Below, piece by piece: positions 9,328 to 26,657 of a stretch of 32,000 nucleotides of DNA; position 1 is the stretch's first letter, and each line of letters begins with the position of its first letter. The notes under the pieces were generated by a model. That model worked only from the letters and a program-made list of their open reading frames with translations, was not told the origin of the DNA and ran no database searches. Origin of the DNA: Thermosulfurimonas dismutans (GTDB taxonomy: Bacteria; Desulfobacterota; Thermodesulfobacteria; Thermodesulfobacteriales; Thermodesulfobacteriaceae). The stretch spans positions 34,376-66,375 of the forward strand of contig NZ_LWLG01000013.1 of NCBI RefSeq assembly GCF_001652585.1, in the 5' to 3' direction. Position numbers and translations under genes: made by a program.

Positions 9328-10445
9328 AGGAAAAAGACTACTATGCCATCCTGGGAGTTTCACGTAACGCCACCCAGGAGGAGATTAAAAAGGCCTACCG
9401 GCGTCTGGCGTTAAAATACCATCCCGACCGCAATCCTGGAGACCGGGAAGCGGAGGAACGGTTCAAGGAAATCTCCGAGGCCTATGAAGTTCTTTCGGAT
9501 CCTCAGAAAAGGGCCATCTATGATTCTCAGGGATTCTCTGGCCTACATCGGACGGGTTTTCGTGGTTTCGAAGACGTAGAGGACATCTTTTCTGCCTTTT
9601 CTGATCTCTTTGAAGAGTTCTTCGGTTTCGGCTTTAAAGAGAAACCAGGCCGACGCCCCAGGTCCGGAGCTGATCTCTCCTACGAGATCTCGCTCACCCT
9701 TGAGGAAGTCTATCGAGGCAAGGAAACCGAGGTTACCCTTGAGCTTTATCAAAAATGCGAGGAATGTGCGGGTTCAGGATTGGCGCCCGGGGCCGGCCCA
9801 CGGTATTGCCCGGTTTGTAAAGGCCGGGGGCATATCGTGCATTCGGAGGGCTTTTTTAGGCTGAGCACCACTTGTCCGCATTGTCACGGGATGGGCACTT
9901 ACGTTTCCGATCCCTGCCCCAAGTGTCACGGTGAAGGTCGGATCTGGGGGCGTAAAAAACTCCGAGTCAAGATTCCTCCCGGGGTAGAAGAAGGTTCTCT
10001 TATCCGCATTCCCGGTGAGGGCGAGGCCGGACTATATGGTGGTCCCCCGGGGGACCTCTATCTTAAGGTAAGGATCAAACCTCACGAATATTTCCGCCGG
10101 GAAGGCAAAGATCTTCATCTTGATCTCGTGGTCGGTGTGGTGGACGCCATCCTCGGAGCCGAAACAGAAGTCACCCATCTTTCCGGGGAAAGGATCAAGA
10201 TCAAGATTCCCAAGGGAAGTCAACCCGGAGATCGCATCACTATAAAGGGTAAAGGACTTCCGGATTCCCGCGGGGGGGCTCCCGGAGACCTTATCGTCCA
10301 TCTTCAAGTAAAGCTACCTTCCAAAGTAAATCGGGAGCAGGAAGAGCTTCTCCGACGGTTCGCCGAACTCGAAAAGGAAAAGGCCCCCAGGATTAAATCG
10401 CAACGCAAGAAGAGCTTTCTAGGAAAAATTTTCGGAGAAGCCTGA
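9324..10445 (+). CDS. dnaJ: Molecular chaperone DnaJ
   Basis: J-domain with 'YHPDRNP'; G/F-rich linker; four CxxCxGxG motifs ([32 protein letters not shown]). GTG start overlaps the rpoZ stop (GTGA). Confidence 0.9.
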
Positions 10446-10948
10446 TGGCATTTACGCATCTTGCCGAAGACGGTTCAGCCCGGATGGTGGATGTCTCCGA
10501 GAAAGTCCCTACGGCTAGGGAGGCCGTGGCTCGGGGACGGGTCATCTTGGGAGACAAAGTTTTTCCTCTAGTAAAAGACCGCAATCTTCCCAAAGGGGAC
10601 CTTTTCGGCGCTGCCCGGATCGCCGGAATACTAGCGGCCAAAAAAACCCCGGAACTCATCCCTCTCTGTCATCCTCTACCCATAAGCAAGATCGAAATCC
10701 ATTTTGCCCTGAACGAAGCGGAAAAAAGTCTTGAAATCGAGGCCCGGGTGAAAACCGTAGCCCAGACCGGAGTGGAAATGGAGGCCCTTACGGCCGTATC
10801 AGTAGCTGCCCTTACGATCTATGACATGTGTAAAGGTATTGACAAAGGGATACGGATAACGGATATTCGCCTTCTTGAGAAAAGAGGGGGCAAGAGCGGA
10901 GAGATCATTCTGGAAAAAGGAGGACTTCATGGATCCCAAAAAGCTTGA
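10445..10948 (+). CDS. moaC: Cyclic pyranopterin monophosphate synthase accessory protein MoaC
   Basis: 'MVDVSEK', 'LIPLCHPLP', 'GVEMEALTAVSVAALTIYDMCK'. Confidence 0.9.
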   Translation: MAFTHLAEDGSARMVDVSEKVPTAREAVARGRVILGDKVFPLVKDRNLPKGDLFGAARIAGILAAKKTPELIPLCHPLPISKIEIHFALNEAEKSLEIEARVKTVAQTGVEMEALTAVSVAALTIYDMCKGIDKGIRITDIRLLEKRGGKSGEIILEKGGLHGSQKA

Positions 10949-11291
10949 ATACTTCAAAAACCTCCTGCTTGAAAAGAGGCAAAAACTAGTTCAGGAAGCC
11001 GATCGCACCTTTCATTCTCTTGAAGGGGGGAGCGAACGCCTGGCTGATCCTACGGATATCGCCTCCAAGGAAAGTGATCTTGGTTTTGAACTCCGCATTC
11101 GTGACCGGGAGCGCAAACTTATCAGGAAGATAGACAAGGCCCTGCAGAAGATTGAAGAAGGGTCTTACGGGATCTGTGAGGCCTGCGGAGAGGAGATTGA
11201 GGAAAAGCGTCTCATGGCCCGTCCGGAGGCCACTCTCTGCATCCGCTGCAAACGAGAGCAGGAGCGTCTGGAGAAACTTCGCGGAGAATAG
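10929..11291 (+). CDS. DksA/TraR-family C4 zinc-finger protein
   Basis: 'CEACGEEIEEKRLMARPEATLCIRCK'. Start at ATG 10929, preceded by 'aaaggagga'. Overlaps the moaC 3' end by 20 nt. Confidence 0.8.
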   Translation: MDPKKLEYFKNLLLEKRQKLVQEADRTFHSLEGGSERLADPTDIASKESDLGFELRIRDRERKLIRKIDKALQKIEEGSYGICEACGEEIEEKRLMARPEATLCIRCKREQERLEKLRGE

Positions 11292-11297
11292 CCTAAA

Positions 11298-12293
11298 GTG
11301 CCGGAATTCCGGCGAGACCCTGTAAGCGGTCGCTGGGCCATCATCGCCCCCGAGAGAGGAAAAAGGCCTACTGATTTCCTTCTCCCTGAAGAAAATACCA
11401 AAGAGGGACGTTGTCCTCTATGCCCTGGGAGTGAAGACCTCACTCCTCCGGAAGTGCTAGCCCTTGGAAGACCTGAAGAAGCCCCACCTAATAGCCCCGG
11501 ATGGAAGGTAAGGGTTGTCCCTAACAAATATCCGGCCCTCATACCCGGAGAAATAGAAAAAGAAACGGAGGGGCTTTATGAAAGGTTTTCCGGGGCGGGG
11601 GTTCACGAGGTCATCGTAGAAACCCCGGAACACGGAAAGTCTCTGGTCAGGTTCAGTCCCAACGAGCTGGCCCTGGTCTTCGAGGCCTACCGTTTGAGAC
11701 TTGAGGAGCTGGCTCGAGACGGGCGATGGCGATATGTACTTATCTTCAAGAATCGAGGTGCCCGGGCTGGAGCCTCTCTGAGTCACGATCACAGCCAGCT
11801 CGTGGCTCTGCCCCTGATCCCGGAGTTGGTAAAAATTGAACTCGAAAGAAGCCGGATCTATCATGAAAGGAATGGAGAATGCCTTTTCTGTAAGCTCGTC
11901 AAAAGTGAACAGAATGGCCCCCGGCGGATTTGCGAAAACGAACGTTTTTTGGCCTTTATGGCCTACGCCCCCAGACAACCACTTGAGACCTGGATTATGC
12001 CTAAAAAGCACCGCAGCGACTTCCTAGACCATTTCGACGAAAACCTCGAGGCATTGTGTGATATTTTTCTCAAGGTCTTCGGAAAGCTTGAGGCCATTCT
12101 TCCGGGGTTGCCTTACAATTTTGTACTGCACACTGCCCCCCTCGGAAGCGCTCCCCTGCCCTACTATCACTGGCACTTTGAAATCATTCCTTGTCTAACC
12201 CGGGTGGCGGGCTTTGAATGGGGTACCGGGGCCTATATCGTGCCCTTGCTTCCCGAGGAGGCCGCGGCCTTTTTGCGTGATATCTCTCCATGA
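11298..12293 (+). CDS. galT: GalT-family (HIT superfamily) hexose-1-phosphate nucleotidyltransferase
   Basis: Zn site 'CPLCPG'; active-site 'SHDHSQ' (the HxHxQ of GalT); 331 aa. Confidence 0.7.
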   Translation: MPEFRRDPVSGRWAIIAPERGKRPTDFLLPEENTKEGRCPLCPGSEDLTPPEVLALGRPEEAPPNSPGWKVRVVPNKYPALIPGEIEKETEGLYERFSGAGVHEVIVETPEHGKSLVRFSPNELALVFEAYRLRLEELARDGRWRYVLIFKNRGARAGASLSHDHSQLVALPLIPELVKIELERSRIYHERNGECLFCKLVKSEQNGPRRICENERFLAFMAYAPRQPLETWIMPKKHRSDFLDHFDENLEALCDIFLKVFGKLEAILPGLPYNFVLHTAPLGSAPLPYYHWHFEIIPCLTRVAGFEWGTGAYIVPLLPEEAAAFLRDISP

Positions 12294-15391: not shown

Positions 15392-15622
15392 TTATAGAAG
15401 GTTATCAAGCTCATCAAGGCTTATTCCAGCGGCTTTAAGAATACATTTGAGGGTTTTGGGAGCTAGAATTTTTCCGCTATGAACCGGTATGGTAACCAAG
15501 ACTTCTTTCTCGTCATGATAGAGATGGTAGTGGCTTCCTTTGATTCGGACTATTCGGAAATCTGCTCGCTGTAAAGCTTTTACTAGGTCTTTCCCGGTGA
15601 TCCTAGGCAGCTTTCTGCTCAA
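15392..15622 (-). CDS. hicA: HicA-family mRNA interferase toxin
   Basis: 'LPRITGKDLVKALQRADFRIVRIKGSHYHLYH' (YcfA/HicA fold signature). TTG start. Overlaps hicB by 20 nt. Confidence 0.85.
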   Translation of the reverse strand: MSRKLPRITGKDLVKALQRADFRIVRIKGSHYHLYHDEKEVLVTIPVHSGKILAPKTLKCILKAAGISLDELDNLL

Positions 15623-15821
15623 ATTCGACCTCTATTTCGGCCTGAAAAGACTTTCTGAGTTCTGTCAGGGCTTCAAGGTGTCCTTCGATGGCTTCTTTGG
15701 CATTTCCTATGGCTTCTTCGATAGTGTCTCCCTGAGTGACGCATCCCGGAAGATCCGGGACCGTGACCGTGAAGCCGCCTTCTTCATTGGGCTCGATCAC
15801 AATTTTATAACGAAGTGTCAT
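15603..15821 (-). CDS. hicB: HicB-family antitoxin
   Basis: 'YKIVIEPNEEGGFTVTVPDLPGCVTQGDTIEEAIGNAKEAI'. ATG 15821 is preceded by 'ggagaagagaag'. Confidence 0.85.
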   Translation of the reverse strand: MTLRYKIVIEPNEEGGFTVTVPDLPGCVTQGDTIEEAIGNAKEAIEGHLEALTELRKSFQAEIEVEFEQKAA

Positions 15822-15896
15822 CTTCTCTTCTCCTGTTTTTGGGATTCGTTTTATCATTTTAGATAAAATTCAGACGGATTTGAAGTTTGAATTTGC

Positions 15897-16097
15897 TCAT
15901 CCGGTATCGATTTCCCGGAGCAAGTGCGCAGGCAGGTCAATAAAGGCAAAAAAATCTTTTGGGTAGAGGTAAGGTTCTCCACTTTCGTCTATGACTTTGA
16001 GGAGGCCGTATTCCTCTCCGAGGACGGGATAAACTTTCCACTTTTCGAGAGAAAGCTCATAGCCCTGGTTTTTGATGCAAAGGGCGATCTTACTCAT
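15897..16097 (-). CDS. Hypothetical small protein (66 aa)
   Basis: Clean ORF with an ATG start and no motif I can name. Confidence 0.45.
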   Translation of the reverse strand: MSKIALCIKNQGYELSLEKWKVYPVLGEEYGLLKVIDESGEPYLYPKDFFAFIDLPAHLLREIDTG

Positions 16098-16741: not shown

Positions 16742-18573
16742 TTAGCCGCTCGAAAGCCTCTGAGTAAGCCTTTTCCACCAGCGAAAGCCTTTCTTCTCAT
16801 CCTCCAGATCCAGAAAGTTCTTAAATCTTTGGGCGTCCAAGAGGACTACCCCTTTGGTTTCCACCACCACGCCCGAGGGAAGATAGTTTACCAGCGAATC
16901 CTTATCCGGCCGGGAATGTTCCAAGAAGGCCCGGGTGATATCAAAGTACTCCCGACCGTCAATTTTTATAGTCTTTGCAAACAGTTCCTGGTGGGCGTGG
17001 TAAAAGGTAAACCAGGCCCGGCGGGCTCGCTCCCGATAGTAAAGATCTACAAGCCTTTCCTCCGTAAACCACCTCGGCCGATCCAGATCCAATTCCTCAA
17101 AATACTCCAGAAAGATTTCCCTGGCAGGTTTTAAGAAGTCTTCGGGGAAAAAGATTTCTTTCTGCCGGAATCTTCGTTCGAGTCTGAAAACGAAATCTCG
17201 GAAGAGGTCCTCTTCAAGACGGTATTCCCGTTTTACTCTCTGAGGAAACGGGACGGAAAGTGGAAGATAGTAGATTCGGCGCATGACCTCCGGAGGGGCG
17301 TGGAAGTCCTTCTCGTTTCCGGTGGCCAGGAAACAGGCATGGGGGCCGGAGAAGGTGTTGGCCATCTCTTTGATGAACTGCACGCCTTCGTATGATCTTT
17401 CCGAAGTGGTGGTGAAGTACTGCCGTTTAACCTCGTCCACCAGGACGGGAAAGAGATTTCCGTTGGTAAGAAGAAGATAAATACCGCGCGAGTTGATTTT
17501 TCCGGCCGGGAATTTGGCCTTGGGAGTATAATGGTAATGAAGGCCGTGGTTTCCCAGAAGACGACTTATGGCACGCAGAAGAAAGGTCTTTCCGGAGCCG
17601 GCCGCCCCTGCGATATAAAGGAAGATGGGTACTTCCGCTAGATACTCTTCCCCCAGAAGGGAAGCCTCTTTGCGAATGAGCCACAGAAAGGGCGACATGA
17701 AGGCGTAAAGGACGGCCTCGAAGGCAATGCGGCTAGCCCGCTCTTCGCCGGTAAGCTCGGAGTAGGAGCTCAAAAACTCATTAAGTCCCTGAAAAACCGT
17801 CTGGAGCCTCTCCAGAGGAAGCTCCCTTCCCAGAGGCTCGCCATTTCTGAAAAGTCCTTCCTCACGCCATTGGAATCTAGGCCTATCGTCCTCGAATTCC
17901 CTGGTCTCCTGGACGGTTCGCTTGAGCACCCGGAAAAGGGCCTCTTTTTTCGCATAAACCTCTCTGGGGGAGATAAGGATGGCCCCGGATTCCGTGCGCT
18001 TGGTTATGACCCGAAAAACCTCAAGGAGCTTTCTTTGTTCGCGGACGTTTTCCTCTTTTTCTTTGATCTTCTTTTCCATCTCTTCCAGAGAGTCTTTTAA
18101 GTGAGCTTCCACAAGGAGGGTTTTCACCTCCCCGATACGGTCGGCAAAAAACTCCAGGGTTTCCTTGTCTTTGACCAATAAGGCTTCAGGGAGTTTCTTT
18201 TTCTTTTGGAGAAAATCTTTAGGGAATAGGGGACGAGAAGATTTCTTTAAATGTCTTAGTACCTTTTCAAAGAGGGCAAATTTGGACGGATTCTCTTCTT
18301 CATCAAAGACTTCGAGGATCTCCCATTGGCGTCCGCCAAGGGCTCTCTCGGTGAGGTTGGCGCTTCCCCAGATAAGCCTGCGCCCAGTCTCACCTTTTAA
18401 GAGAAAGATTTTGGCATGACTGGCTTCAAAGGGTACCAATACTTGGTAATCTCCTTTGGAGAGTTTTTCGAGAATTTGGGCGTTGGCCGAAACTTCTTCA
18501 AAGAGTCGGCGATTTTCCTCCGGTTCAAAAAAGGCCGCAAGTCCTCGCGCCGATTCCGGGAAACCTACTATGA
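16742..18573 (-). pseudogene. C-terminal 608 codons of an IS-split PLD-nuclease / P-loop NTPase fusion gene
   Basis: HKD-type motif 'HAKIFLLKGETGRRLIWGSANLT'; coiled-coil-like K/E-rich linker; Walker A 'IAGAAGSGKT'; Walker B 'FPVLVDEV'; 'FLATGNE'. The first ~33 codons of the listed ORF (18574-18673) are IS-derived. Confidence 0.85.
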
Positions 18574-19830
18574 GGGACTGTCCACCCGTTTGTGTAAATT
18601 TCATTATAGCCGGTCCTCGAAGAGAATTGCTATCTGGCCGTATATCTGAGGCCAGCCCTTGATCTGGGCCCATTTCCGCTCAAGCTCCATAGCTGCCATG
18701 TACAAGCACTTTAACAGGGATTCTTCCGTCGGAAATACCCGTCTTCCGGCCGTAGCCTTACGAAATTTACTATTTACGCTCTCTATAATATTTGTCGTGT
18801 ACATTACTCGCCTAATCTCCACAGGATACCTGAAAAAGGCTGTAAGAGCCTCCCAGTTCGCCTGCCAGCTCTTCACTACGTGAGGGTATTTACTCCCCCA
18901 TTTCTCCGAAAAAGCCTCCAGCTCCCTCTCCGCCGCCTCAAGCGTGGCCGCCCCATAGATCCTCTTGAGATCCCGAGCTATTTCACGTCTCTCTTTCCAA
19001 GCCACATACCTCAAGGAATTCCTGATCTGATGCACTATGCATCTCTGGATATCCGCCCTCGGGTAAACCGCCCCTATGGCCTTCTCAAGCCCAGAAAGCC
19101 CATCCACGCTGAAAATGAAAACATCCTTCACCCCTCGAGACTTTAGGTCGTTCAATACACCAAGCCAAAATCGGCTCGATTCTGTCCCGTTTATCCAAAA
19201 ACCTAAAATCTCCTTATAACCCTCAAGATCGAGTCCTATCGCCACATATACCGCCTTGTTCCTTACCTGCCCCTCCTCCCTGGCTTTATAGAAAATACAG
19301 TCTATCCAAATCAAAAAATACTTCTCCTTGAGCGGCCTCGAACGCCATTCCTCTATCTCCGGAAGTAGCCGATCCGTAATCTTGGAAATCAAAGAAGGAC
19401 TTACGTCAAAACCATACATCTCCGAAAGGATCTCCTGGATATCCCTGGTACTCATACCTTTGGCGTAAAGGGCTACAATCTGGTTTTCGATCTCATCCAG
19501 CATAGTCTGGCGCTTCCTGACTATTTGAGGCTCAAATTCGCCCTTCCGATCCCTGGGAACCTTGATCTCCAGGGCCCCGGAAGAGGTCTTAATCGTCTTG
19601 GAACTGTAGCCGTTCCGGGAATTGTCGGTATCCGAGCGCTCGTATCTCCCGTAGCCCAAAAACTCCTCTAGTTCGGCCTCAAGGGCTTCCCTCAAAGTAC
19701 GCCGGACAAGTTCCTTAATGGTGGCCTGCACTTCTTCGGGCTGAGGTGCCTTCTTGGCTCTTGCCATAGTGTCCACCCTCCTTTTGTAATTTGCTTATTC
19801 TAAAATCTCCACAGTTGGGTGGACACTCCC
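18574..19830 (-). mobile_element. IS256-family insertion sequence, copy 1 (1257 bp), intact
   Basis: Imperfect terminal IRs: GGGACTGTCCACCCGTTTGTGTAAATTTCA (18574-18603) versus the complement of 19801-19830, GGGAGTGTCCACCCAACTGTGGAGATTTTA (23/30 match). Perfect 8-bp TSD TACTATGA at 18566-18573 and 19831-19838. Confidence 0.95.
18604..19776 (-). CDS. IS256/Mutator-family transposase (390 aa)
   Basis: 'NGYSSKTIKTSSGALEIKVPRDRKGEF', 'VDGLSGLEKAI', 'IQRCIVHQIRNS', 'YTTNIIESVNSKFRK'. Confidence 0.95.
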   Translation of the reverse strand: MDTMARAKKAPQPEEVQATIKELVRRTLREALEAELEEFLGYGRYERSDTDNSRNGYSSKTIKTSSGALEIKVPRDRKGEFEPQIVRKRQTMLDEIENQIVALYAKGMSTRDIQEILSEMYGFDVSPSLISKITDRLLPEIEEWRSRPLKEKYFLIWIDCIFYKAREEGQVRNKAVYVAIGLDLEGYKEILGFWINGTESSRFWLGVLNDLKSRGVKDVFIFSVDGLSGLEKAIGAVYPRADIQRCIVHQIRNSLRYVAWKERREIARDLKRIYGAATLEAAERELEAFSEKWGSKYPHVVKSWQANWEALTAFFRYPVEIRRVMYTTNIIESVNSKFRKATAGRRVFPTEESLLKCLYMAAMELERKWAQIKGWPQIYGQIAILFEDRL

Positions 19831-20058
19831 TACTATGAAACACAATTTTTCGAAACCAAGATTCAGGAAGAACTCCAAGGCCTTTCTTATGGAGGCCGAA
19901 TAGGTGAGCACCAGGGCCTCCTGATAGCCTGCCACTAAACTCTGAGGGTCTCCAGAGAACTCCCGCCCTTTATATAAGATCTTGAGACGGCTCTCCGAAG
20001 TGTTTTCAAAAAGCCCCGCCATCCTTTTCATCTTGAGGTCTTTTTGTTGTTTTGACAA
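19831..20058 (-). pseudogene. N-terminal 76 codons of the IS-split PLD-nuclease / P-loop NTPase gene
   Basis: Reads '...LVLTYSASIRKALEFFLNLGFEKLCFIV' up to the TSD. It joins in frame to 18565 once the IS and one TSD copy are removed. The start is ambiguous (TTG 20058, ATG 20031 or ATG 20022). Confidence 0.8.
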
Positions 20059-20079
20059 GGCGTCGCTTGGAGTTATATT
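20052..20079 (+). promoter_or_regulatory. Near-consensus sigma-70-type promoter for the plus-strand operon
   Basis: TTGACA (20052-20057), 16-nt spacer, TATATT (20074-20079), 24 nt upstream of ATG 20103. Confidence 0.4.
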
Positions 20080-20102
20080 CAGAAAATCAACTCATAGAAC
20101 CT

Positions 20103-20855
20103 ATGGCACTTGACGAAAAGATTCTCTATCGCATTTTTTCCGAGCTTTTTCCGGATGAGACGGTTGAAAATTGGGCCTTTCTCGGAGACGGCTTTACGCC
20201 TTTTGCGGACTGGAGGCGAGCCGCCGGCCCCAAAAGAGAGCTTTGCTTTCTTATCAAAACCTGCGATCCTCGAAAGTTTATCGTAAAAGCCGAGGATATT
20301 CTCGGTTCCCATTGCCGCATAGCCAAGCTCGATGAGGCCATGGGGGTCTATTCTTTCTGGGTAGGCTGGTGCGAGACGCCGATCTTTGCGGTCTCCTTTT
20401 TCGTGCCGTTTTCGGACCCGTGGCGGAAAAAGCTCTTTGAGAGGATTTTTTACGGAGATAAGGAAAAATTTCACTATTGCAAACTATTCAATCATGGGGT
20501 GCGTCTCCTTCCGGACGAAGACTTTGGGGTTCTTTCCGTGGCCCTCGGAAGACAGGTAAGACGCCCACTTGATGGATTTTACGCTCTGGTGCTGGCCTCA
20601 AATGACCGAGCCACGGCCGAGAGAATCGAGGAGCTTGCGGGGATTCTTAAAATTTTAGAAAAGTTGAAAATCTTGGAAAAGAAGGCTTCTTTATTCAATT
20701 TAGCCAAAAACAGAATGGAAAGTTACAAGGATCGTGGTATCAATCGGTTTTTTTATTTTTGGGACTATGAGGAGCGCTGGTTACGGAGCGCGAAAGCCGA
20801 AGAAGTAAGAATGTTAAAGCGTATGAAAAGCTCCCTGCTTTTCAAAGACGACTAG
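20103..20855 (+). CDS. Hypothetical protein (250 aa), first gene of the operon
   Basis: ATG 20103 chosen because the TTG at 20052 coincides with the predicted -35 box. No recognisable motif. 5-nt gap to the next gene. Confidence 0.6.
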   Translation: MALDEKILYRIFSELFPDETVENWAFLGDGFTPFADWRRAAGPKRELCFLIKTCDPRKFIVKAEDILGSHCRIAKLDEAMGVYSFWVGWCETPIFAVSFFVPFSDPWRKKLFERIFYGDKEKFHYCKLFNHGVRLLPDEDFGVLSVALGRQVRRPLDGFYALVLASNDRATAERIEELAGILKILEKLKILEKKASLFNLAKNRMESYKDRGINRFFYFWDYEERWLRSAKAEEVRMLKRMKSSLLFKDD

Positions 20856-20860
20856 GAGTT

Positions 20861-21583
20861 ATGCTAGCCTTTGCCGCGGACATTCACGGCGAGTGGCGCA
20901 GGCTTTACGAGAACCTCCCTCAGGAGGTGGAAGCGGTTTTCATCTGCGGGGACGCTGAAATGGTTCGCTCTGAGGAGGATTTGGCGCTTATACCGGCTCC
21001 CAAGAAGCATCTAAAGCTCGGAGATTTTCATTTCTTTTGGGAGCGGGGCGAGGTTCCCGTTCCGACCTATGTCCTTCTTGGAAACCACGAGCCGTACCTG
21101 TGGCTCTGGGAGCACGAAAAAAACGGACCGACGGAGGTCATTAAGAACCTATGGGTGCTGGCACGGTCGGGAGTTATTGAGCTTTGCGGGCTAAAGATTG
21201 CTTATCTTGGCAGGGTTTTTGCCCCTACTACCTATTTTGAAGGGCGAGTATGGAATCCAGAGAAAGACAAGAGGTCCAAAAAGTCGAAGCTTGCGAGCCG
21301 TTTTACACCGGAAGATGTAGAAAGACTCATTTCAGAGGCGGCTAAAGTGGAAGATGTCGATGTACTCGCTCTCCACGAAAATCCGAATTATTGCAAGGAC
21401 GCACGAGGAAGAGAAGTCTATCGGAATATTGTTGAGCTTGTGAGACCGAAACTCATCATTTGCGGACATATGCATCGTCTTTTACTGGAAACTTTTTCTG
21501 GTGTTCCTATTTTTGGGCTTCCATATGGGATTCCAGTCACTTGGCAAAAAATCGAGTGTTCGATGGAAAACACAAATCTTTGA
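20861..21583 (+). CDS. Calcineurin-fold metallophosphoesterase, Dbr1 (debranching enzyme)-like, paralog 1
   Basis: Motifs 'ADIHGE', 'CGDAE', 'LGNHEP', 'ALHENP', 'CGHMH'. The block 'GDAEMVRSEEDLALIPAPKKHLKLGDFHFFW' resembles the Dbr1 region '[31 protein letters not shown]' (from memory). Confidence 0.7.
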   Translation: MLAFAADIHGEWRRLYENLPQEVEAVFICGDAEMVRSEEDLALIPAPKKHLKLGDFHFFWERGEVPVPTYVLLGNHEPYLWLWEHEKNGPTEVIKNLWVLARSGVIELCGLKIAYLGRVFAPTTYFEGRVWNPEKDKRSKKSKLASRFTPEDVERLISEAAKVEDVDVLALHENPNYCKDARGREVYRNIVELVRPKLIICGHMHRLLLETFSGVPIFGLPYGIPVTWQKIECSMENTNL

Positions 21584-21635
21584 GCGCTAATTCGACCTCG
21601 ATGTTTCGTCCAAGCCGATAAGTTTTCAATAGGCT

Positions 21636-22505
21636 ATGCATTTCGCAGTCATCGGTGATGTTCACGGGCGATTTGAGTTGCTGGCAAGGGTGCTTGCGGT
21701 CCTGCGCGACCGCTACGGGGTAGAACTCGCCTTTCAGGTGGGCGACTTGGCCTTTCTATCCTCAAGCGACCCCAAGTACCTCAAGGCCCTGAAGATGGCC
21801 GGGCCGCAAACTCCGCCCCTCATTTACGACGTTTTTGATGATGAAGTCCAAGCCATAAGGTTCCTCCACGGCGACATCGAGCTTCCCGTCCCGGTCTACT
21901 TCGTAGGCGGAAATCACGAGGACTGGCCGTACTTAGACTTCGTGGAAGAGAAGATGCGCGAGCAGGGGATAGCACCGCCCTACGAGATTGCGCCGAACCT
22001 CTTTTTCCTGGGAAAGGCGAGCGTGGTGGAGGTGTCCGAAATGCGGGTCGTCACCCTTTCAGGGATCTACGACCGCCTCAAGTGGGAGCTCTGCGTGACC
22101 TCACCGCGGAAGCTCTACTACCACAACCAAGAAGACGAAGAGGCGCTTCTCTTCCATGCGCCCGGGGCGGACCTTTTCATCGCGCACGAGTGGCCGGTGA
22201 AGCTCGCTTCGGGCGCAACCTGGGAGGAGGCCATTTACGCAGCCGTCGGCTCTCCCACGGTGGACCGGCTCATCCACCACTTTCGGCCCGCGCTTTCGTT
22301 CCACGGGCACATGCACCGCTACGCGCAGGGCATTCGCGGCCCCATGGGAGAGCGGCCCACGAAGTGGGTGGGCCTGGACATGCTCATCGTGGACCACTAC
22401 CACAGAGTCCGCAATGTGGCCCTTTGCGAGTTCGAGGGGCCGGGTGCGGTGAGGCTCCTTTTTACCGCGGAGGCGAGGAAACTCTTAAAGGACGCTTCCG
22501 CTTAG
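21636..22505 (+). CDS. Calcineurin-fold metallophosphoesterase, Dbr1 (debranching enzyme)-like, paralog 2
   Basis: Motifs 'IGDVHGR', 'VGDLAF', 'GGNHED', 'IAHEWP', 'HGHMH'. 'APNLFFLGKASVV...LSGIY' and 'GSPTVDRLIHHFRPALSFHGHMH' parallel recalled human DBR1 blocks. The gene is clearly more GC-rich than its neighbour. Confidence 0.7.
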   Translation: MHFAVIGDVHGRFELLARVLAVLRDRYGVELAFQVGDLAFLSSSDPKYLKALKMAGPQTPPLIYDVFDDEVQAIRFLHGDIELPVPVYFVGGNHEDWPYLDFVEEKMREQGIAPPYEIAPNLFFLGKASVVEVSEMRVVTLSGIYDRLKWELCVTSPRKLYYHNQEDEEALLFHAPGADLFIAHEWPVKLASGATWEEAIYAAVGSPTVDRLIHHFRPALSFHGHMHRYAQGIRGPMGERPTKWVGLDMLIVDHYHRVRNVALCEFEGPGAVRLLFTAEARKLLKDASA

Positions 22506-22514
22506 GAGAGCACG

Positions 22515-22886
22515 ATGTCAACCCGAGACCTTTTGCGGTTTGCAAGAGAAGTGGAAAAGAGCCGTCCCCGACTGAGGCGGGTCCTCAAGGTGGAGGAGCT
22601 TTATACCGAGTACCTCACGCGTCTTCCCCGCCTTCCGGTGGTGCGGGCCGGTTTCGAGGTCCTCAACGAATTTAATCTCCGCATCGTTTCCCCGAAAGCG
22701 CTTATTGCGGTGCTCCTCTGTCTTCCCGAGCGCTCAATGGACCTCTCTGCTTTCGTGCGGGTGCTTCCCGAAGTCTTTCCAGAGGATCTTTCCAGAGCCC
22801 TGCAAGTCCTTTCGGGGGACCCCGGGGTGCTTGCAGTGGTTCTCTACGGTTCAAGGGCTCGAGGAGATGCTCGGCCGGATTCGGAC
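22515..22886 (+). pseudogene. NTase-domain protein (~100-aa N-terminal extension plus a minimal nucleotidyltransferase motif), 3'-truncated by an IS
   Basis: 'VLAVVLYGSRARGDARPDSD' is the MNT/Pol-beta-type GS-x9-D-x-D motif. It is cut directly after DSD by the IS inverted repeat starting at 22887/22888. The listed ORF tail 'WGGIQFCVSGE*' is IS sequence. Confidence 0.75.
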
Positions 22887-22887
22887 T

Positions 22888-24237
22888 GGGGTGGTATTCA
22901 ATTTTGTGTGTCTGGAGAGTAAATAAGGAAGGCCCCTGGTGAAGGGCCTTCCTAAAAGAAAAGGGGAAAAGAAGAAACTCATCAAGGAGGTAACCGCTAT
23001 GAAACAGAATAATCCCTTCACCGAAGAATTTCTAGAACAACTTAAGGACTGGGAAAACTTTGTCCCCAGAGAGTTCCTCTCCTGGCTCTTTAAAAACCTG
23101 GGCCTGGCACACCGCGCCATCCACCTCAAGAAACATCCCCATGACAAGGGAAACGGCTTCTACGAAAGAACACTACAGATAGGATACAGATAGGAAGTCT
23201 TCCTTTTCCCGTAGAGGTGGCCCGTACACGGTATGAAAAGTTCCGGCCCTTTTTCCTCCCTCCAGGACACCTCCGGTATCTCCCCGAAGATTACCTCCAC
23301 CTGACCTCCTCCCTTCTCCTGGGCTCCCGATCCATCGATAGCGCTTCCCGGGCCCTAAAAAATATGGGCCTCCCCATAAATCAAGATTACCTGGAAGAAG
23401 TGATCGAAGAGTTCGTGACCTATCTCGAGGACCTCAACTCCTGCCCGCTGCCTTCAGATTTGGCCGCCCTCATCCTGGATGCCAAACATATCCACCAGAA
23501 GCTCAAAGACGGACAGAAGGTCATGGGACATACCACCTATGTGGCCCTGGGCCTTACCCTGGATGGGCAGAAGAAGATCCTAGGCCTCTACACCTTCGAG
23601 GGCTCAGAGAGCCTCGAGGGCTGGAAGAAGACCCTGGAGAAGCTTCTTCAGCGGGGGCTGAGGGGGATCCTTATCGTGATCCATGATGACTTCCCTGGAC
23701 TCCTGGGCCTCACCTCAAGCCTTTTTCCTCAGGCGGATATTCAACTTTGTACGGTGCACCTTTGCCGGAATGCAAGAAAACACCTCTCCCAGGAGAACTA
23801 TCGCACCTTTAAGAGCTACTTCAAAAGCATCAAAGCAAGCCTCAGCTATGAGGAAGGCTTGAGGCTTTTTGATTCTCTTCTCAAGGAGCTTCCACAGGAG
23901 AACACCTTTGTGAAGCTTCTTGCAAAGAAGAAAGAGCACTATCTGGCCTTTTTGAAGTATCCGGAGGAGGTGAGACCGCTGTTTTCCTCGACCAATCTGG
24001 CCGAGGGGATCAACCGGAAGATAGAAGAGGCGGAGAGGGCCTGTGGGGGTTATTTCCATTCGGAACGGGACCGGGACTTCAGGTATGGGGTGCTAGCTAA
24101 GGAATTGCTAGAGGGCAGATGGAGGAGGGTCAACTGGAAATACCAGCGGGTGGCTCACCTCCTGAGATATCTTTTCGAGGAAAGGTTTAAAAATGAGGAC
24201 CTCTTGGTCTAGACACAGAAAACTTGACAAGCGCCCC
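22888..24237 (+). mobile_element. IS256/Mutator-family insertion sequence, copy 2 (divergent type, ~1350 bp), transposase inactivated
   Basis: IRs GGGGTGGTATTCAATTTTGTGTGTCT (22888-22913) versus the complement of 24212-24237, GGGGCGCTTGTCAAGTTTTCTGTGTCT. No matching TSD in the flanks. Internal 10-bp hairpin 22926-22935/22944-22953. Confidence 0.8.
22999..24212 (+). pseudogene. IS256/Mutator-family transposase disrupted by an 11-bp tandem duplication
   Basis: ATG 22999 follows AAGGAGG. 'NGFYERTLQIG' runs into a stop at 23191-23193, and the continuation '...SLPFPVEVARTRYEKFRPFF...' is in another frame. TACAGATAGGA occurs twice in tandem (23174-23184, 23185-23195); deleting one copy fuses the frames. 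Confidence 0.85.
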
Positions 24238-24465: not shown

Positions 24466-24669
24466 ATGAAGATCTACGAAACGGTAGTCACGCCGGATCG
24501 AAAAATAGTCGTGGAAAATATTTCTTTGATGCCGGGAGAAAAGGTCAAGTTGCTGATACTCAGGGAAAAGTCTGGCCGGAAGGGATATCCGCTCAGGGGA
24601 AGAAGAGTAGAATATATTGATCCTTTCGAAAGCGTGGCGGAAGATGAATGGGAAGCCCTAAAATGGTAG
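24466..24669 (+). CDS. vapB: VapB-type antitoxin (AF2212/DUF104-like)
   Basis: 67 aa, 'MKIYETVV...GEKVKLLILRE', C-terminal '..DPFESVAEDEWEAL'. ATGGTAG overlap with the PIN gene. Confidence 0.65.
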   Translation: MKIYETVVTPDRKIVVENISLMPGEKVKLLILREKSGRKGYPLRGRRVEYIDPFESVAEDEWEALKW

Positions 24670-24995
24670 TTCTTGACACCCATGTCTGGGTCTGGTGGGT
24701 TCATTCTCCAGAAAAATTAACCTCCAAACAAATTAGTGTCATTCAGGCTAATGAAAACGATTTAATAGGAATCTCGGCCATTTCCTGCTGGGAGATAGCG
24801 AAGTTGGTGGAACGGGGACGGTTGCGGCTTCCCTGCACCCTGGAGGAATGGTTCGATCTGGCTTTTTCCTATCCGGGGATAGAGATAATCCCTCTGACCC
24901 CTGAAATCGCCATAGAATCGACCAGGCTACCTGGAAACTTTCACAGAGATCCGGCGGATCAGCTGATTGTGGCCACAGCTCGGGTCCTGAATTGT
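24663..24995 (+). pseudogene. vapC: PIN-domain toxin VapC, 3'-truncated at a junction with IS1634-like sequence
   Basis: 'VVLDTHVWVWW', 'CWEIAKL', 'RDPADQLIVATARVLNCPLV'. From about 24996 the ORF reads the antisense of a transposase fragment, so the final acidic PIN residue region is missing. Confidence 0.75.
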
Positions 24996-25229
24996 CCGCT
25001 TGTCCAGCGCCCCTTCCTTAAGCTTTTCCAGACGCCCCAGGTTAGCCACGATCCTCTGGCGCACTTTTCCACTAACCCGCTTGCCCTCCACGATATAGAG
25101 ATAGGTTTTTGGAGGTGGAGACGGTAGAACAGAGGCAGGGAAGGGGAAAAAAGGGGGCATTTTAGGGGTATTTTGGGCCGAAAATACTCACTTCAGATTC
25201 ACCAGCCCTTTCCGACTGTCAAACTTGAG
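24960..25229. repeat. Left arm of a ~269-bp inverted repeat (36 nt of vapC plus the IS1634-like 5' end, transposase codons 1 to ~55, UTR and IS terminus)
   Basis: 24960-25198 equals the reverse complement of 30069-30307 with 2 mismatches in 239 nt (my alignment). The outer 31 nt are related but diverged. The minus-strand ORF 'MPPFFPFPASVLPSPPPKTYLYIVEGKRVSGKVRQRIVANLGRLEKLKEGALDK' is a typical IS1634-group N-terminus. Confidence 0.9.
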
Positions 25230-25510
25230 TTTGAGGTATGTTGCGAAGAGATTGAGCCAACGCGAGAGGAGAGCTTTTCGTCAGAGGGCTAGACAGCAGC
25301 GATTTTGAAGCTAAGATCAAGATGTTGATGTTTCAAAGCGGACTTTCCCTGTTGGGTGATTTGTTGTATTGCACGAAAGATAAGTATACCAGGGGGACAC
25401 CTTTTCTTTTAGAATCTCTTAGATTGGTTGAAATAATGTTAGAAACACTGGTAATTAAGAAGAGTCAAAGTGAAAGAAGTTGAAAAAAATACAACAGAGG
25501 AGGTAAAATT

Positions 25511-26536
25511 ATGAAAAGAGCACTGATAACTGGTATAAGAGGTCAAGATGGAGCTTACTTAGCAAAACTGCTATTAGAAAAAGGATATGAAGTTTACGGT
25601 GCAGACAGGAGGAGTGGCGATTCCAGTAATTGGCGTTTAAAAGAACTTGGTATAGAAAAATACGTGAAGGTAATTTATATGGATCTTCTAGAGCTAACGA
25701 ACATACTCAGAGTAATTAAGGAAGTTCAACCTGACGAGGTATATAATCTTGCAGCACAAAGTTTTGTACAGGCTTCTTTTGAACAGCCTATACTAACGGC
25801 AGAGGTAGATGCTATTGGAGTTCTTAGATTGTTAGAAGCTCTAAGATTTTATAAATCAGATGCAAAATTTTATCAAGCATCAACGAGCGAGATGTTTGGA
25901 AAGGTTCAAGAAGTTCCTCAAAAAGAAACAACACCTTTCTACCCAAGGAGTCCTTATGCTGTAGCCAAGCTCTTTGGACACTGGATTACAGTTAACTACA
26001 GAGAATCTTATAACATGTTTGCATGCTCTGGTATTTTGTTTAATCACGAATCCCCTTTAAGAGGGTTAGAATTTGTAACAAGAAAAATTACTTACACTTT
26101 AGCACGGATTAAATATGGATTAGAAGATAAGCTTATTCTTGGAAATCTTGATGCTAAAAGAGATTGGGGTTATGCTCCCGAATATGTAGAAGTTATGTGG
26201 TTAATGCTTCAACAAGATACGCCGGATGATTATGTGATAGCAACGGGTGAAACTCATACAGTCAGAGAGTTTGTAGAAAAGGCGGCAGAAATTGCGGGAT
26301 TTCAAATAGAATGGGAAGGAGAAGGGATAAATACGAAAGGTATAGATAAGAAAACTGGAAAAATTATAATAGAGGTTTCTCCTAAGTTTTATAGACCTGC
26401 TGAAGTAGATATTTTAATAGGAGATTATTCTAAGGCAAAAACTAAGCTTGGCTGGAAACCTAAAATTAAATTCGAAGAGCTTGTTAGAATCATGATGGAG
26501 GCTGACCTTAAACGAATTGAAAAAGCGAAACAATAG
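25511..26536 (+). CDS. gmd: GDP-mannose 4,6-dehydratase
   Basis: '[25 protein letters not shown]', 'STSEMFG', 'SPYAVAKL' (YxxxK). GAGGAGG RBS. Markedly AT-rich. Confidence 0.92.
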
Positions 26537-26642
26537 ATTAATCTCAACTTATGAGAGTAAATGAAAATTGCAGTAATAGCTAATTGTTAAGCTAAACTAT
26601 TAGAGTGTTAAAACTTTTTGATTTTGAATCTAAATAACTTTT

Positions 26643-26651
26643 GGGGGGGGG
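26643..26651 (+). repeat. Homopolymeric G9 tract in the manC ribosome-binding region
   Basis: Nine consecutive G at 26643-26651, 6 nt upstream of ATG 26658. Confidence 0.95.
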
Positions 26652-26657
26652 CGTTCT

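What the first reader, a model, noticed from the sequence alone, without database searches (positions are those of the whole stretch)
16742..20058. Single-chain fusion of a PLD-family nuclease with an SF3/AAA-like P-loop NTPase, with no methyltransferase nearby
Established knowledge: single-HKD PLD nucleases (Nuc, BfiI) act as dimers. As I recall, CglI/NgoAVII-type restriction enzymes pair a PLD-type R protein with a separate NTPase N protein and need NTP hydrolysis. Here both activities appear fused in one polypeptide, separated by a K/E-rich, probably coiled-coil linker ('EEMEKKIKEKEENVREQRK'). No DNA methyltransferase gene lies within the island portion visible here. This could be an NTP-driven, modification-independent or modification-dependent nuclease. 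The alternative is a replication helicase-nuclease of the integrated element, because the Walker A/B plus 'TGN' arrangement resembles SF3/primase-associated ATPases.
Basis: partly seen in the sequence, partly recalled or inferred. Interest (0 to 1): 0.7.

Follow-up and report, generated by a model that had tools for sequence, protein, structure and literature searches.

The report
IS-broken PLD nuclease–SF3 helicase gene
This is one gene, recently split by a jumping element, that fuses a DNA-cutting PLD nuclease to a ring-helicase-type ATP motor; it belongs to a widespread, never-characterised family that most likely attacks foreign DNA without a partner methylase.

Summary
Removing a 1257-bp IS256/Mutator-family element (18574-19830) and one copy of its 8-bp target duplication (TCATAGTA) restores one uninterrupted minus-strand ORF. 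It probably starts at ATG 20031 (674 aa), not TTG 20058 (683 aa).

The N-terminal ~190 aa form a single-HKD PLD nuclease domain of the NgoAVII-R/BfiI/SauUSI/Zucchini type. H117, K119, N137 and E149 are conserved.

The C-terminal ~365 aa form a D5/P4-type SF3 helicase module: helical collar, Walker A, Walker B, sensor-1 Asn, Arg finger and a winged-helix-like tail. A ~120-aa helical linker joins the two.

The fusion is not a one-off. It defines a family (Pfam PF27394 'Aq_aa27', function unknown) with about 1300 clusters at 50% identity across many phyla. The PLD domain was found in nearly every member checked.

There is no conserved partner gene. A DNA methyltransferase lies within three genes in 2 of 25 loci. 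No replication or integrase genes recur. Homology to the nearest intact ortholog stops at the gene borders, and dN/dS is 0.10.

My best reading is a stand-alone, horizontally mobile, ATP-driven PLD endonuclease used in defence, inactivated here by the IS. The function is inferred, not shown. Novelty: a new variant of the known ATP-dependent PLD restriction enzymes.

The parts
19831..20031 (-). 5' fragment of the PLD-SF3 gene (codons 1-67, MKRMAGLF...CFIV).
   Evidence: Translation. Ortholog starts. Nucleotide homology to L001 begins at window 20034.
19831..19838 (.). Target-site duplication, copy 1 (TCATAGTA on the minus strand)
   Evidence: The empty site in L001 has a single copy.
18574..19830 (-). 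IS256/Mutator-family insertion sequence, 1257 bp. Imperfect terminal inverted repeats of about 35 nt lie at 19796-19830 and 18574-18608.
   Evidence: Inverted repeat I1. End sequences. Absent from the orthologous gene in L001.
18604..19776 (-). Transposase ORF of the IS (390 aa)
   Evidence: Pfam Transposase_mut E=8.7e-125.
18566..18573 (.). Target-site duplication, copy 2 (TCATAGTA)
16742..18565 (-). 3' fragment of the PLD-SF3 gene (codons 68-674 plus stop at 16742-16744)
   Evidence: 85% nucleotide identity to L001 7719-9546.
18197..18565 (-). C-terminal two thirds of the PLD nuclease domain (aa 68-190). The whole domain is aa ~14-190 and is split by the IS after aa 67.
   Evidence: AF2 model mb300ededb103, pLDDT mostly 77-98 in this domain. 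Foldseek hits to SauUSI, NgoAVII-R, BfiI, Zucchini and Tdp1. Profile hits to Zucchini/MitoPLD at 1.5e-6 and NucT at 1e-4.
18320..18418 (-). PLD catalytic motif H117-x-K119 ... G134-S-x-N137 ... Q147-x-E149
   Evidence: H117 and N137 are invariant; K119, G134, S135, Q147 and E149 are at least 90% conserved in 103 family representatives. E149 aligns with the conserved Glu of Zucchini.
17840..18196 (-). Helical linker region (aa 191-309). It includes the K/E-rich helix EEMEKKIKEKEENVREQRK (18029-18085) and two small beta-hairpins.
   Evidence: AF2 shows a long helix at aa 220-254, pLDDT 57-79. Sequence conservation across the family is poor.
17627..17839 (-). Helical 'collar' preceding the ATPase (aa 310-380)
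   Evidence: AF2 helices 318-339 and 342-371, pLDDT above 90. The collar role is inferred from the helical domains that precede the ATPase core in SF3 helicases (established knowledge). I did not inspect per-residue Foldseek alignments.
17222..17626 (-). SF3-type AAA+ ATPase core (aa 381-515): Walker A 17585-17608, Walker B 17432-17446, sensor-1 ATGN 17315-17326, Arg pair R496/R497 17276-17281
   Evidence: G392, K393, N484 and R497 are invariant; D444 is at least 90% conserved. Foldseek hits to vaccinia D5, SaPI5 primase-helicase, E1, Rep40, PriRep1 and B19V NS1. 73 viral models at E<=1e-3, and the named ones are mostly D5/P4-type primase-helicases. hhalign to the P4 alpha helicase domain gives E=1.8e-4 with the motifs in register.
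16745..17221 (-). C-terminal helix/beta-hairpin domain (aa 516-674), winged-helix-like; a possible DNA-binding or recognition module
   Evidence: AF2 secondary structure H546-558, H573-591, E599-602, E605-609, pLDDT about 86-97 to aa 650. The winged-helix assignment is inferred from that pattern and from the known C-terminal domains of D5/P4 helicases. It was not tested on its own.

Best explanation
The locus is a single gene encoding a ~674-aa protein with three parts. The N-terminus is a single-HKD PLD nuclease domain. The middle is a helical linker. The C-terminus is a D5/P4-type SF3 (AAA+) helicase module with a winged-helix-like tail.

In this genome (Thermosulfurimonas dismutans) the gene was recently knocked out. 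An IS256-family element inserted after codon 67, inside the PLD fold.

Proposed mechanism for the intact protein (inferred, not shown):
- The collar and AAA+ core oligomerise into a ring, as SF3 helicases do, and translocate on or unwind DNA using ATP.
- The tethered PLD domains pair up. One HKD per chain means two chains are needed for one active site.
- The paired PLD domains cut the DNA the motor is threading, without metal ions and through a phosphohistidine intermediate.

The gene travels alone, has no cognate methyltransferase, and is scattered across unrelated phyla. In a minority of loci it sits beside restriction-modification and toxin-antitoxin genes. The most likely role is therefore a stand-alone anti-foreign-DNA nuclease: Type IV-like (modification-dependent), or one that recognises a DNA structure or replication intermediate.
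For: **Shown:**
- One ORF is restored by precise IS excision, and the ortholog has an empty site.
- PLD nuclease domain:
  - Pfam PLDc_2 matches 62 of 65 members and RE_NgoFVII 57 of 65.
  - The family profile hits Zucchini at 1.5e-6, NucT at 1e-4 and BfiI at 5e-3.
  - Foldseek hits SauUSI at 1.4e-4, NgoAVII-R at 1.8e-4 and BfiI at 2.4e-3.
  - H117 and N137 are invariant, and K119 and E149 are at least 90% conserved, in 103 representatives.
- SF3 module, from an AF2 model with pLDDT 87.8:
  - It matches vaccinia D5, SaPI5 primase-helicase, E1, Rep40, PriRep1 and NS1.
  - It matches 73 viral models; the named ones are mostly D5/P4 primase-helicases.
  - Walker A K393, sensor-1 N484 and R497 are invariant, and Walker B D444 is at least 90% conserved.
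  - hhalign aligns these motifs with the P4 alpha helicase.
- The family is large and full-length: 1298 clusters at E<1e-3 and 395 at E<1e-30. All but one of ten divergent members checked keep the PLD domain.
- Purifying selection acts on all three segments, dN/dS 0.09-0.10.
- It behaves as a single-gene cassette. Homology to the 88%-identical ortholog stops at the gene borders. No neighbour family is shared across 35 loci except within genus-level synteny.
- Methyltransferases lie within three genes in 2 of 25 non-redundant loci, and no integrase or replication family recurs.
- Defence or toxin-antitoxin neighbours occur in some loci:
  - Type III R-M, HD, Nmad2 and ParE (L005)
  - a helicase-MTase-helicase cluster (L010)
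  - PLD-SNF2 plus an Eco57I-type MTase (L067)
  - DUF2283 (L001)
  - HicAB and PIN in this window
- No homolog was found in 50,697 phage records.
- Experimentally shown defence endonucleases share the layout 'N-terminal BfiI/NgoAVII-like PLD + variable C-terminal domain': SauUSI (PMC7913695) and the END nucleases (PMC12191111).
Against: - There is no experimental evidence for any member.
- The family has no full-length match in PADLOC v2.
- Most neighbourhoods are ordinary housekeeping genes, not defence islands. The defence-island signal is therefore weak and was not tested statistically.
- One Limosilactobacillus subfamily is syntenic across at least 10 species. That looks more like stable vertical inheritance than a typical accessory defence gene.
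- All close structural relatives of the ATPase are replication proteins of viruses, plasmids and satellites.
- Foldseek E-values are modest (1e-4 to 1e-6).
- Pfam SF3 models are not matched above threshold.
Confidence: 0.55

Rival explanations
1. The protein is a replication or maintenance factor of a mobile element. It would be a Rep-like initiator in which a PLD nuclease, which also works through a covalent enzyme-DNA intermediate, replaces the HUH nickase or primase usually fused to an SF3 helicase. It would nick and unwind an origin.
For: - The ATPase module's structural relatives are all replication helicases: D5, P4/SaPI primase-helicases, E1, Rep40/68, NS1 and PriRep1.
- The layout 'N-terminal nuclease/primase + collar + SF3 helicase + winged-helix tail' mirrors those proteins.
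- The family occurs on 16 plasmids, once directly beside ParAB and Rep, and on Aquifex plasmid ece1.
Against: - Most copies are solitary chromosomal genes between housekeeping genes, with no integrase, recombinase or other element genes nearby.
- Those plasmids already carry their own Rep genes.
- The unit of transfer is the gene alone, with no flanking origin-like DNA shared between orthologous loci.
- No phage carries it.
- The PLD domain is closest to restriction-enzyme PLDs (RE_NgoFVII in 57 of 65 members).
Confidence: 0.12
2. The protein is a host DNA-repair or DNA-processing enzyme. For example, it could be a motor-coupled Tdp1/Nuc-like phosphodiesterase that removes protein-DNA adducts or processes stalled forks.
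For: - Neighbours are mainly housekeeping genes.
- The gene is syntenic in at least 10 Limosilactobacillus species.
- 7 of 65 members give weak Pfam Tyr-DNA_phospho matches (best E 9.7e-7), and Tdp1 appears among the fold hits.
- One locus lies beside an SbcCD-like pair and another beside AddAB-like genes.
- All segments are under strong purifying selection.
Against: - The distribution is extremely patchy: 54 loci among 185,579 species genomes, scattered over unrelated phyla including one archaeon.
- Close orthologs sit in unrelated loci.
- The gene tolerates knockout here by an IS, and the Aquifex copy is fragmented.
- Tdp1 has two HKN motifs per chain; this family has one HKD.
- The best PLD matches are restriction-type nucleases.
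Confidence: 0.15
3. The 'fusion' is an artefact: two unrelated gene fragments brought together by joining sequence across the IS.
For: The gene is physically split in this window, and the public annotation calls only a 620-aa product that starts inside the IS.
Against: - Intact orthologs (675 and 673 aa, 88% and 72% identity) are colinear over the whole length.
- The join restores the frame exactly, with an 8-bp target duplication and an empty site in L001.
- Hundreds of full-length family members share the architecture.
Confidence: 0.01

Closest known systems
[quoted passage not shown]
   Same: - It is a single polypeptide with an N-terminal single-HKD PLD nuclease followed by an NTP-driven DNA motor and a C-terminal DNA-recognition region.
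- It has no cognate methyltransferase.
- The PLD domain is the top or second-best Foldseek hit.
- Function and mechanism are described in PMC3141236 and PMC7913695.
   Different: - SauUSI's motor is a two-lobed SF2 helicase-like ATPase, and its sensor is a DUF3427-type target-recognition domain.
- It works as a dimer.
- Here the motor is a single AAA+/SF3 domain with a collar, expected to form rings.
- No DUF3427, SRA or PUA-type sensor was detected.
CglI / NgoAVII ATP-dependent restriction enzymes (R + N/H + M)
   Same: The PLD domain is of the R.NgoAVII type: Pfam RE_NgoFVII in 57 of 65 members and 4RCT at E=1.8e-4. Cleavage in those systems depends on NTP hydrolysis by an associated motor (PMC4267653).
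   Different: - There the nuclease and motor are separate proteins.
- R carries a B3-like site-recognition domain (PMC4267654).
- A methyltransferase is always present.
- None of these features holds here.
D5/P4-alpha/SaPI primase-helicases (SF3 helicases of viruses, satellites and plasmids)
   Same: The C-terminal two thirds (collar, SF3 ATPase with Walker A, Walker B, motif C Asn and Arg finger, and a C-terminal tail) matches these proteins structurally. It also matches weakly by profile (phrog 'DNA primase' in 3 of 65 members).
   Different: - The N-terminal primase (AEP or Toprim) is replaced by a PLD nuclease.
- The genes are not found in phages, and their neighbours do not form replication modules.
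END nucleases and BfiI (N-terminal PLD + variable C-terminal domain)
   Same: They share the modular logic: a BfiI/NgoAVII-like PLD catalytic N-terminus with an exchangeable C-terminal module that determines the target. END nucleases are single-gene defence systems missed by PADLOC and DefenseFinder (PMC12191111).
   Different: Their C-terminal domains are passive DNA binders (inactive EndoIII-like, B3-like pseudobarrel) with no NTPase. Here the C-terminal part is an ATP motor.
McrBC (Type IV restriction)
   Same: Conceptually it is a ring-forming AAA+ NTPase that drives a nuclease against DNA, without a methyltransferase.
   Different: - McrB is a GTP-specific AAA+ protein of a different clade.
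- The nuclease (McrC) is a separate PD-(D/E)xK protein.
- No sequence or structural match was seen here.

Membership tests
PLD superfamily, single-HKD nuclease clade (Nuc/BfiI/NgoAVII-R/Zucchini) | HxK...(G)SxN motif plus the downstream conserved Glu | tested here: met
   H117, K119, G134-S-A-N137 and E149 are present in the window protein. They are invariant or at least 90% conserved in 103 representatives. E149 aligns to the Zucchini Glu.
PLD superfamily, single-HKD nuclease clade (Nuc/BfiI/NgoAVII-R/Zucchini) | PLD fold recognised by profile and structure comparison | tested here: met
   The window protein alone is below the Pfam threshold (PLDc_2 20.7 bits against a cutoff of 27). The family profile hits Zucchini at 1.5e-6 and NucT at 1e-4. 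62 of 65 members hit PLDc_2. The AF2 model hits SauUSI, NgoAVII-R, BfiI, Zucchini and Tdp1.
PLD superfamily, single-HKD nuclease clade (Nuc/BfiI/NgoAVII-R/Zucchini) | Homodimerisation to build one active site; metal-independent cleavage through a phosphohistidine intermediate | not testable with these tools
   Requires multimer modelling or biochemistry.
SF3 helicases (AAA+; D5/P4 clade) | Motifs A (Walker A), B (Walker B) and C (sensor-1 Asn), with an Arg finger shortly after motif C | tested here: met
   GxxxSGKT (K393 invariant), hhhhDE (D444 at least 90% conserved), TTN/TGN (N484 invariant), and R497 invariant 13 residues after N484. The same register is seen against P4 alpha.
SF3 helicases (AAA+; D5/P4 clade) | Fold similarity to solved SF3 helicases, including the helical collar | tested here: met
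   Foldseek hits to 8APM (D5) at 3.3e-4, 7OLA (SaPI5 primase-helicase) at 4.8e-4, and to 1TUE/2GXA (E1), Rep40, PriRep1 and NS1. 73 BFVD hits at E<=1e-3; the named ones are mostly D5/P4 primase-helicases. E-values are modest.
SF3 helicases (AAA+; D5/P4 clade) | Sequence-profile membership in curated SF3 families | tested here: inconclusive
   There are only weak, sub-threshold hits: Pfam RNA_helicase (PF00910) in 3 of 65 members, phrog_1139 'DNA primase' in 3 of 65, and hhalign to P4 alpha at probability 48%, E=1.8e-4.
SF3 helicases (AAA+; D5/P4 clade) | Hexameric ring; 3'-5' DNA unwinding or translocation | not testable with these tools
   Requires multimer modelling, cryo-EM or biochemistry.
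Pfam PF27394 (Aq_aa27) | Match to the family model | tested here: met
   Precomputed PF27394.1 hits on the window's own annotated product P0001 and on all homologs. The model is absent from the local Pfam copy, so it was not re-scored. The name derives from a fragmentary Aquifex ece1 ORF.
[not shown]
   The motor is fused and SF3-like. No conserved partner gene exists. A methyltransferase is found in 2 of 25 loci and none in this window.
SauUSI-type Type IV restriction enzymes | PLD + SF2 helicase + DUF3427 target-recognition domain | tested here: not met
   Only the PLD domain matches SauUSI. No SF2 or DUF3427 Pfam hits occur in 65 members.
Known anti-phage defence systems (PADLOC v2.0) | Full-length match to a defence-system protein model | tested here: not met
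   Only local hits were found: ZacB at 2.6e-6 over the PLD motif (aa 126-188 of the 683-aa query), and P-loop-only hits to mad8, PtuA and GajA.
Rep-type initiators / primase-helicases | HUH nickase or AEP/Toprim primase domain N-terminal to the SF3 helicase | tested here: not met
   The N-terminus is a PLD domain in 62 of 65 members and in 9 of 10 divergent members. One member has a weak RepD-like_N hit only.

The most novel reading that the evidence does not exclude
PF27394-type proteins would be a previously unrecognised class of single-polypeptide restriction or defence enzymes. In them a ring-forming SF3 replicative-helicase module, recruited from virus or plasmid primase-helicases, drives paired PLD nuclease domains along foreign DNA without any methyltransferase. 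That would make them the first restriction-like nucleases powered by an SF3 helicase. Target choice (modified bases or replication intermediates) would be made by the helicase's winged-helix tail.
Probability: 0.4. Interest if true: 0.7.

Novelty: new variant of a known kind. Interest (0 to 1): 0.5.

Why it matters
If the family is a defence nuclease, it adds a widespread single-gene system: about 1300 clusters at 50% identity, across Thermodesulfobacteriota, Campylobacterota, Spirochaetota, Nitrospirota, Firmicutes, Thermotogota and at least one archaeon. PADLOC v2.0 does not detect it.

It would also show a replicative SF3 helicase module, typical of viruses and plasmids, turned into the motor of a host nuclease. 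That differs from the SF2 motors of Type I/III, CglI and SauUSI enzymes.

Thermophilic members could be useful as robust, metal-independent, ATP-gated nucleases.

For this particular genome the practical message is modest. The gene is a recent IS-generated pseudogene, and the public annotation (a 620-aa product starting inside the IS) is misleading.

Tried and rejected
- **Partner gene.** I compared the immediate neighbours of the three closest orthologs with the window and clustered three genes either side of 35 loci. Nothing is shared except within genus-level synteny (Limosilactobacillus, Desulfurellales).
- **Methyltransferase or replication linkage.** Pfam and PADLOC scans of 147 neighbour proteins and of 10 large neighbours gave methyltransferases in 2 of 25 loci. 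No integrase or Rep family recurred. Several large neighbours were plain housekeeping genes (UbiD, P-type ATPase, SpoIID, HflX-like, AddAB-like).
- **Known defence family.** PADLOC gave only local motif hits.
- **Literature.** Searches for PF27394, aq_aa27, and PLD + SF3 + defence found nothing on this family.
- **Phage homologs.** None were found.
- **Searches that did not work.**
  - The first shallow-alignment AF2 model was mediocre (pLDDT 66.8) and was replaced by a 103-sequence model.
  - The search for related loci failed with the most divergent alignment.
  - The third word-indexed homolog search added no new members.
- **tRNA or integrase boundaries.** No tRNA gene lies in the window. 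I cannot confirm that the gene sits in a discrete integrated element, only in a variable stretch rich in toxin-antitoxin modules and IS elements.
- **Promoter and terminator scan.** The number of sites did not exceed the shuffled expectation.

Full report
**1. The observation**

The minus strand between 20058 and 16742 does not hold one continuous ORF. It holds an 87-aa ORF (19795-20058), a 390-aa ORF (18604-19776) and a 643-aa ORF (16742-18673).

The middle ORF is a Mutator/IS256-family transposase (Pfam Transposase_mut, E=8.7e-125). It sits in a 1257-bp element (18574-19830). The element has imperfect terminal inverted repeats, GGGAGTGTCCACCC... and GGGACTGTCCACCC.... It is flanked by an 8-bp direct repeat, TCATAGTA, at 19831-19838 and 18566-18573.

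Deleting the element and one repeat copy joins the outer ORFs in frame, with no stop or frameshift.

The nearest intact ortholog locus (L001, a Thermosulfurimonas MAG) has a single TCATAGTA at the corresponding position, a classical empty site.

Orthologs start at MKRMAGLF or MNGLF, and nucleotide homology to L001 begins 3 nt upstream of ATG 20031. The true start is therefore probably ATG 20031, giving 674 aa rather than the 683 aa counted from TTG 20058.

With that start the window protein has the same residue numbering as the ortholog P0002.

**2. What the protein is**

*N-terminal domain.* Taken alone, the window protein gives only sub-threshold Pfam hits: PLDc_2 at E=4e-4 and RE_NgoFVII at 0.014. 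The family context makes the assignment secure.
- 62 of 65 diverse members hit PLDc_2, and 57 of 65 hit the NgoFVII restriction-endonuclease PLD domain.
- A 103-sequence family profile hits Zucchini/MitoPLD (1.5e-6), NucT (1e-4), BfiI (5e-3) and Nuc in the PDB.
- The AF2 model hits SauUSI (1.4e-4), R.NgoAVII (1.8e-4), BfiI, Zucchini and Tdp1.
- H117 and N137 are invariant, and K119, G134, S135, Q147 and E149 are at least 90% conserved.

There is one HKD motif per chain. As in Nuc and BfiI, two chains would be needed for one active site (established knowledge; not tested here).

*C-terminal two thirds.* At sequence level only the P-loop is recognised. An AF2 model built on 6 sequences was mediocre (pLDDT 66.8). 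A model built on 103 family representatives reached pLDDT 87.8 and pTM 0.71.
- Apart from the PLD hits, its best PDB matches are SF3 helicases: vaccinia D5 (8APM, 3.3e-4), the SaPI5 primase-helicase (7OLA, 4.8e-4), papillomavirus E1, AAV Rep40/68, PriRep1 and B19V NS1.
- Against predicted viral structures there are 73 hits at E<=1e-3. The named ones are mostly D5/P4-type primase-helicases, with alignments of about 340-680 columns.
- The SF3 motif set is conserved: Walker A (K393 invariant), Walker B (D444), motif C/sensor-1 (N484 invariant), and an invariant arginine 13 residues later (R497). That is the position of the SF3 arginine finger (spacing compared with E1 and LTag from my own knowledge).
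- hhalign places these motifs in register with the helicase domain of phage P4 alpha (E=1.8e-4, probability 48%).
- A two-helix bundle (aa 318-371) precedes the core, where SF3 helicases have their oligomerisation collar. A helix/beta-hairpin tail (aa 516-674) follows, where D5/P4 helicases have winged-helix domains. Both assignments are inferences from the secondary-structure pattern.

*Linker.* Between the PLD domain and the collar lies a poorly conserved, largely helical region of about 120 aa.

**3. It is a family, not a one-off**
- The window's own annotated product and all homologs carry Pfam PF27394 'Aq_aa27'. This model is newer than the local Pfam copy.
- It is named after an Aquifex aeolicus ece1 plasmid ORF. 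That ORF turns out to be one of three fragments of a degraded family member.
- An exhaustive HMMER search found 1298 clusters (50% identity) at E<1e-3 and 395 at E<1e-30. Most of the 150 best hits listed are 650-800 aa and match end to end.
- Nine of ten divergent members checked retain a recognisable PLD N-terminus.
- A scan of one genome per species found 54 loci. They fall in Thermodesulfobacteriota, Campylobacterota, Spirochaetota, Nitrospirota, Bacillota, Thermotogota (on a plasmid), Bacteroidota and an Aenigmatarchaeote.
- 16 PLSDB plasmids carry a homolog. No phage record does.

**4. Genomic behaviour**

*A single-gene unit.* Homology between the window and the 88%-identical ortholog locus is confined to the gene itself (L001 7523-9546), and the flanks are unrelated. 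The three closest orthologs have no neighbour in common with the window. Across 35 loci, the three genes on either side share no family except within genus-level synteny.

*Neighbour content.* In 25 non-redundant loci (147 neighbour proteins), DNA methyltransferases occur in 2. No integrase, recombinase or replication family recurs. Many neighbours are ordinary housekeeping genes.

*Defence or mobile-element company in a minority of loci:*
- Type III R-M, HD, Nmad2, DUF2283 and ParE (L005)
- a helicase-methyltransferase-helicase cluster on pATS1
- a PLD-SNF2 helicase plus an Eco57I-type methyltransferase (L067)
- a DUF2283 gene with a small unassigned ORF beside it, possibly a toxin-antitoxin pair (L001)
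- ParAB and Rep on an Arcobacter plasmid

*This window.* The gene lies in a roughly 10-kb stretch of slightly lower G+C. That stretch also holds HicAB, a PIN gene, an MntA-like fragment, two metallophosphoesterases and two IS256-family transposase genes. No tRNA gene is present and no DNA methyltransferase was found.

*Selection.* dN/dS between the reconstructed window gene and L001 is 0.10 overall, and 0.09-0.10 in each of the PLD, linker and ATPase segments. The gene was under purifying selection until recently, so the IS insertion is young.

**5. Mechanism (inferred)**

Both catalytic centres are conserved throughout the family, so the ATPase and nuclease activities are presumably coupled.

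The most economical model is as follows. The SF3 module oligomerises into a ring on DNA and translocates or unwinds at the expense of ATP. The PLD domains, tethered by the helical linker, pair across protomers to form active sites. These cut the DNA being threaded.

What triggers loading is unknown. The candidates are modified bases, free ends, or replication intermediates of invaders. The winged-helix-like tail is the obvious candidate sensor.

Several observations favour a restriction-like defence role:
- there is no cognate methyltransferase;
- the gene transfers horizontally on its own;
- its distribution is patchy;
- it sometimes has R-M or toxin-antitoxin neighbours;
- its PLD domain is kin to restriction-enzyme PLDs.

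Experimentally shown defence nucleases already follow the pattern of an N-terminal PLD with a variable C-terminal domain: SauUSI (PMC3141236, PMC7913695) and the END nucleases (PMC12191111).

I put this reading at about 0.55. It has two main rivals:
- **A Rep-like replication function on mobile elements (about 0.12).** The SF3 kinship and some plasmid contexts favour it. Solitary chromosomal copies, and plasmids that already have their own Rep, argue against it.
- **A host repair or processing role (about 0.15).** Housekeeping neighbours and synteny across at least 10 Limosilactobacillus species favour it. The extreme patchiness and dispensability argue against it.

**6. Comparison with known systems**

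It works most like SauUSI, a single-chain PLD plus ATP motor with no methyltransferase, and like CglI/NgoAVII, a PLD of the same subtype whose cleavage is NTP-dependent (PMC4267653).

It is a member of neither. Their motors are SF2 (PMC5861437, PMC7913695). Their recognition domains (B3-like, PMC4267654; DUF3427-type) are absent here. CglI/NgoAVII also need a separate motor subunit and a methyltransferase.

The ATPase module belongs structurally with D5/P4 primase-helicases, but the primase is replaced by a nuclease.

PADLOC v2 has no model for the family, and I found no paper on it.

**7. Verdict**
- The particular copy is an IS-inactivated pseudogene.
- The fusion is the hallmark of a large uncharacterised family already catalogued in Pfam and annotated as 'phospholipase D family protein'.
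- I rate it a new variant of a known kind: ATP-dependent PLD restriction-type nucleases, here with an SF3 ring-helicase motor.
- Interest is 0.5. It is a good candidate for an unrecognised single-gene defence family, but the function is entirely inferred and the defence-context signal is weak.

Noticed in passing
window 16742-18673 (minus), especially 18602-18604: The public annotation of this gene (P0001, 620 aa, 'phospholipase D family protein') starts at an ATG inside the right end of the IS. That ATG overlaps the transposase stop codon (taATGa). The annotated protein is therefore a chimera: its first 10 residues are IS-encoded and it lacks PLD residues 1-67. Read-through from the transposase gene could in principle express this truncated product.
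   Followed up: partly
window 31594-31998; 23217-24212; 30413-31468: Further IS elements are present. A copy 77% identical in nucleotides to the first ~400 bp of the inserted IS runs off the window end. A second IS256-family transposase ORF is only 26% identical in protein to the first. An rve/IS481-like transposase is also present. This stretch of the genome is IS-rich.
   Followed up: partly
window 20052-22505 (plus strand): Divergent from the PLD-SF3 gene lie a 267-aa ORF with no family match and two tandem paralogous metallophosphoesterases (20861-21583 and 21636-22505). One gives a weak match to the PADLOC candidate PDC-S10 (1.8e-6). A near-consensus promoter-like site (TTGACA-16-TATATT) lies at 20052-20079. 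Metallophosphoesterases also lie next to family members in Arcobacter: an SbcD-like plus AAA_27/SMC-like operon directly downstream in L013, and one on plasmid p82. This could be coincidence.
   Followed up: partly
window 15392-15857; 24648-25127; 22515-22922; 15897-16097: Toxin-antitoxin-type genes flank the region: a HicA/HicB pair, a PIN-domain gene and an MntA-like nucleotidyltransferase fragment. A 66-aa orphan ORF lies just downstream of the PLD-SF3 gene.
   Followed up: no
window 25500-27500: A sharply lower G+C block (0.35-0.41 against about 0.50) carries GDP-mannose 4,6-dehydratase and a ManC-type mannose-1-phosphate guanylyltransferase. A TPR/SAM-methyltransferase protein follows at 28076-29848. 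This is probably a horizontally acquired polysaccharide cluster.
   Followed up: no
L045-L060 (Limosilactobacillus spp.), match about 10001-11700: A divergent subfamily (~770 aa, about 24% identity) sits at a syntenic locus in at least 10 Limosilactobacillus species. A conserved ~281-aa gene lies downstream (immediately downstream in 8 of the 10 loci), and DUF915 alpha/beta-hydrolase hits occur among the neighbours. This looks more vertically inherited than the rest of the family.
   Followed up: partly
L066 (Aquifex aeolicus plasmid ece1) 5102-7039: The ORF that gave Pfam PF27394 its name (aq_aa27) appears to be the middle piece of a family member broken into three ORFs of 147, 259 and 182 aa. 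Only aa 324-479 of the query matched by tblastn.
   Followed up: partly
L042 716-2746; PLSDB hits H10-H14 (Ligilactobacillus salivarius megaplasmids): Other family copies look disrupted or truncated. One is split into two ORFs in a low-coverage Desulfurellales MAG. Others cover only about 40% of the query and are annotated 'hypothetical protein' on L. salivarius plasmids. Assembly error is not excluded for the MAG.
   Followed up: no
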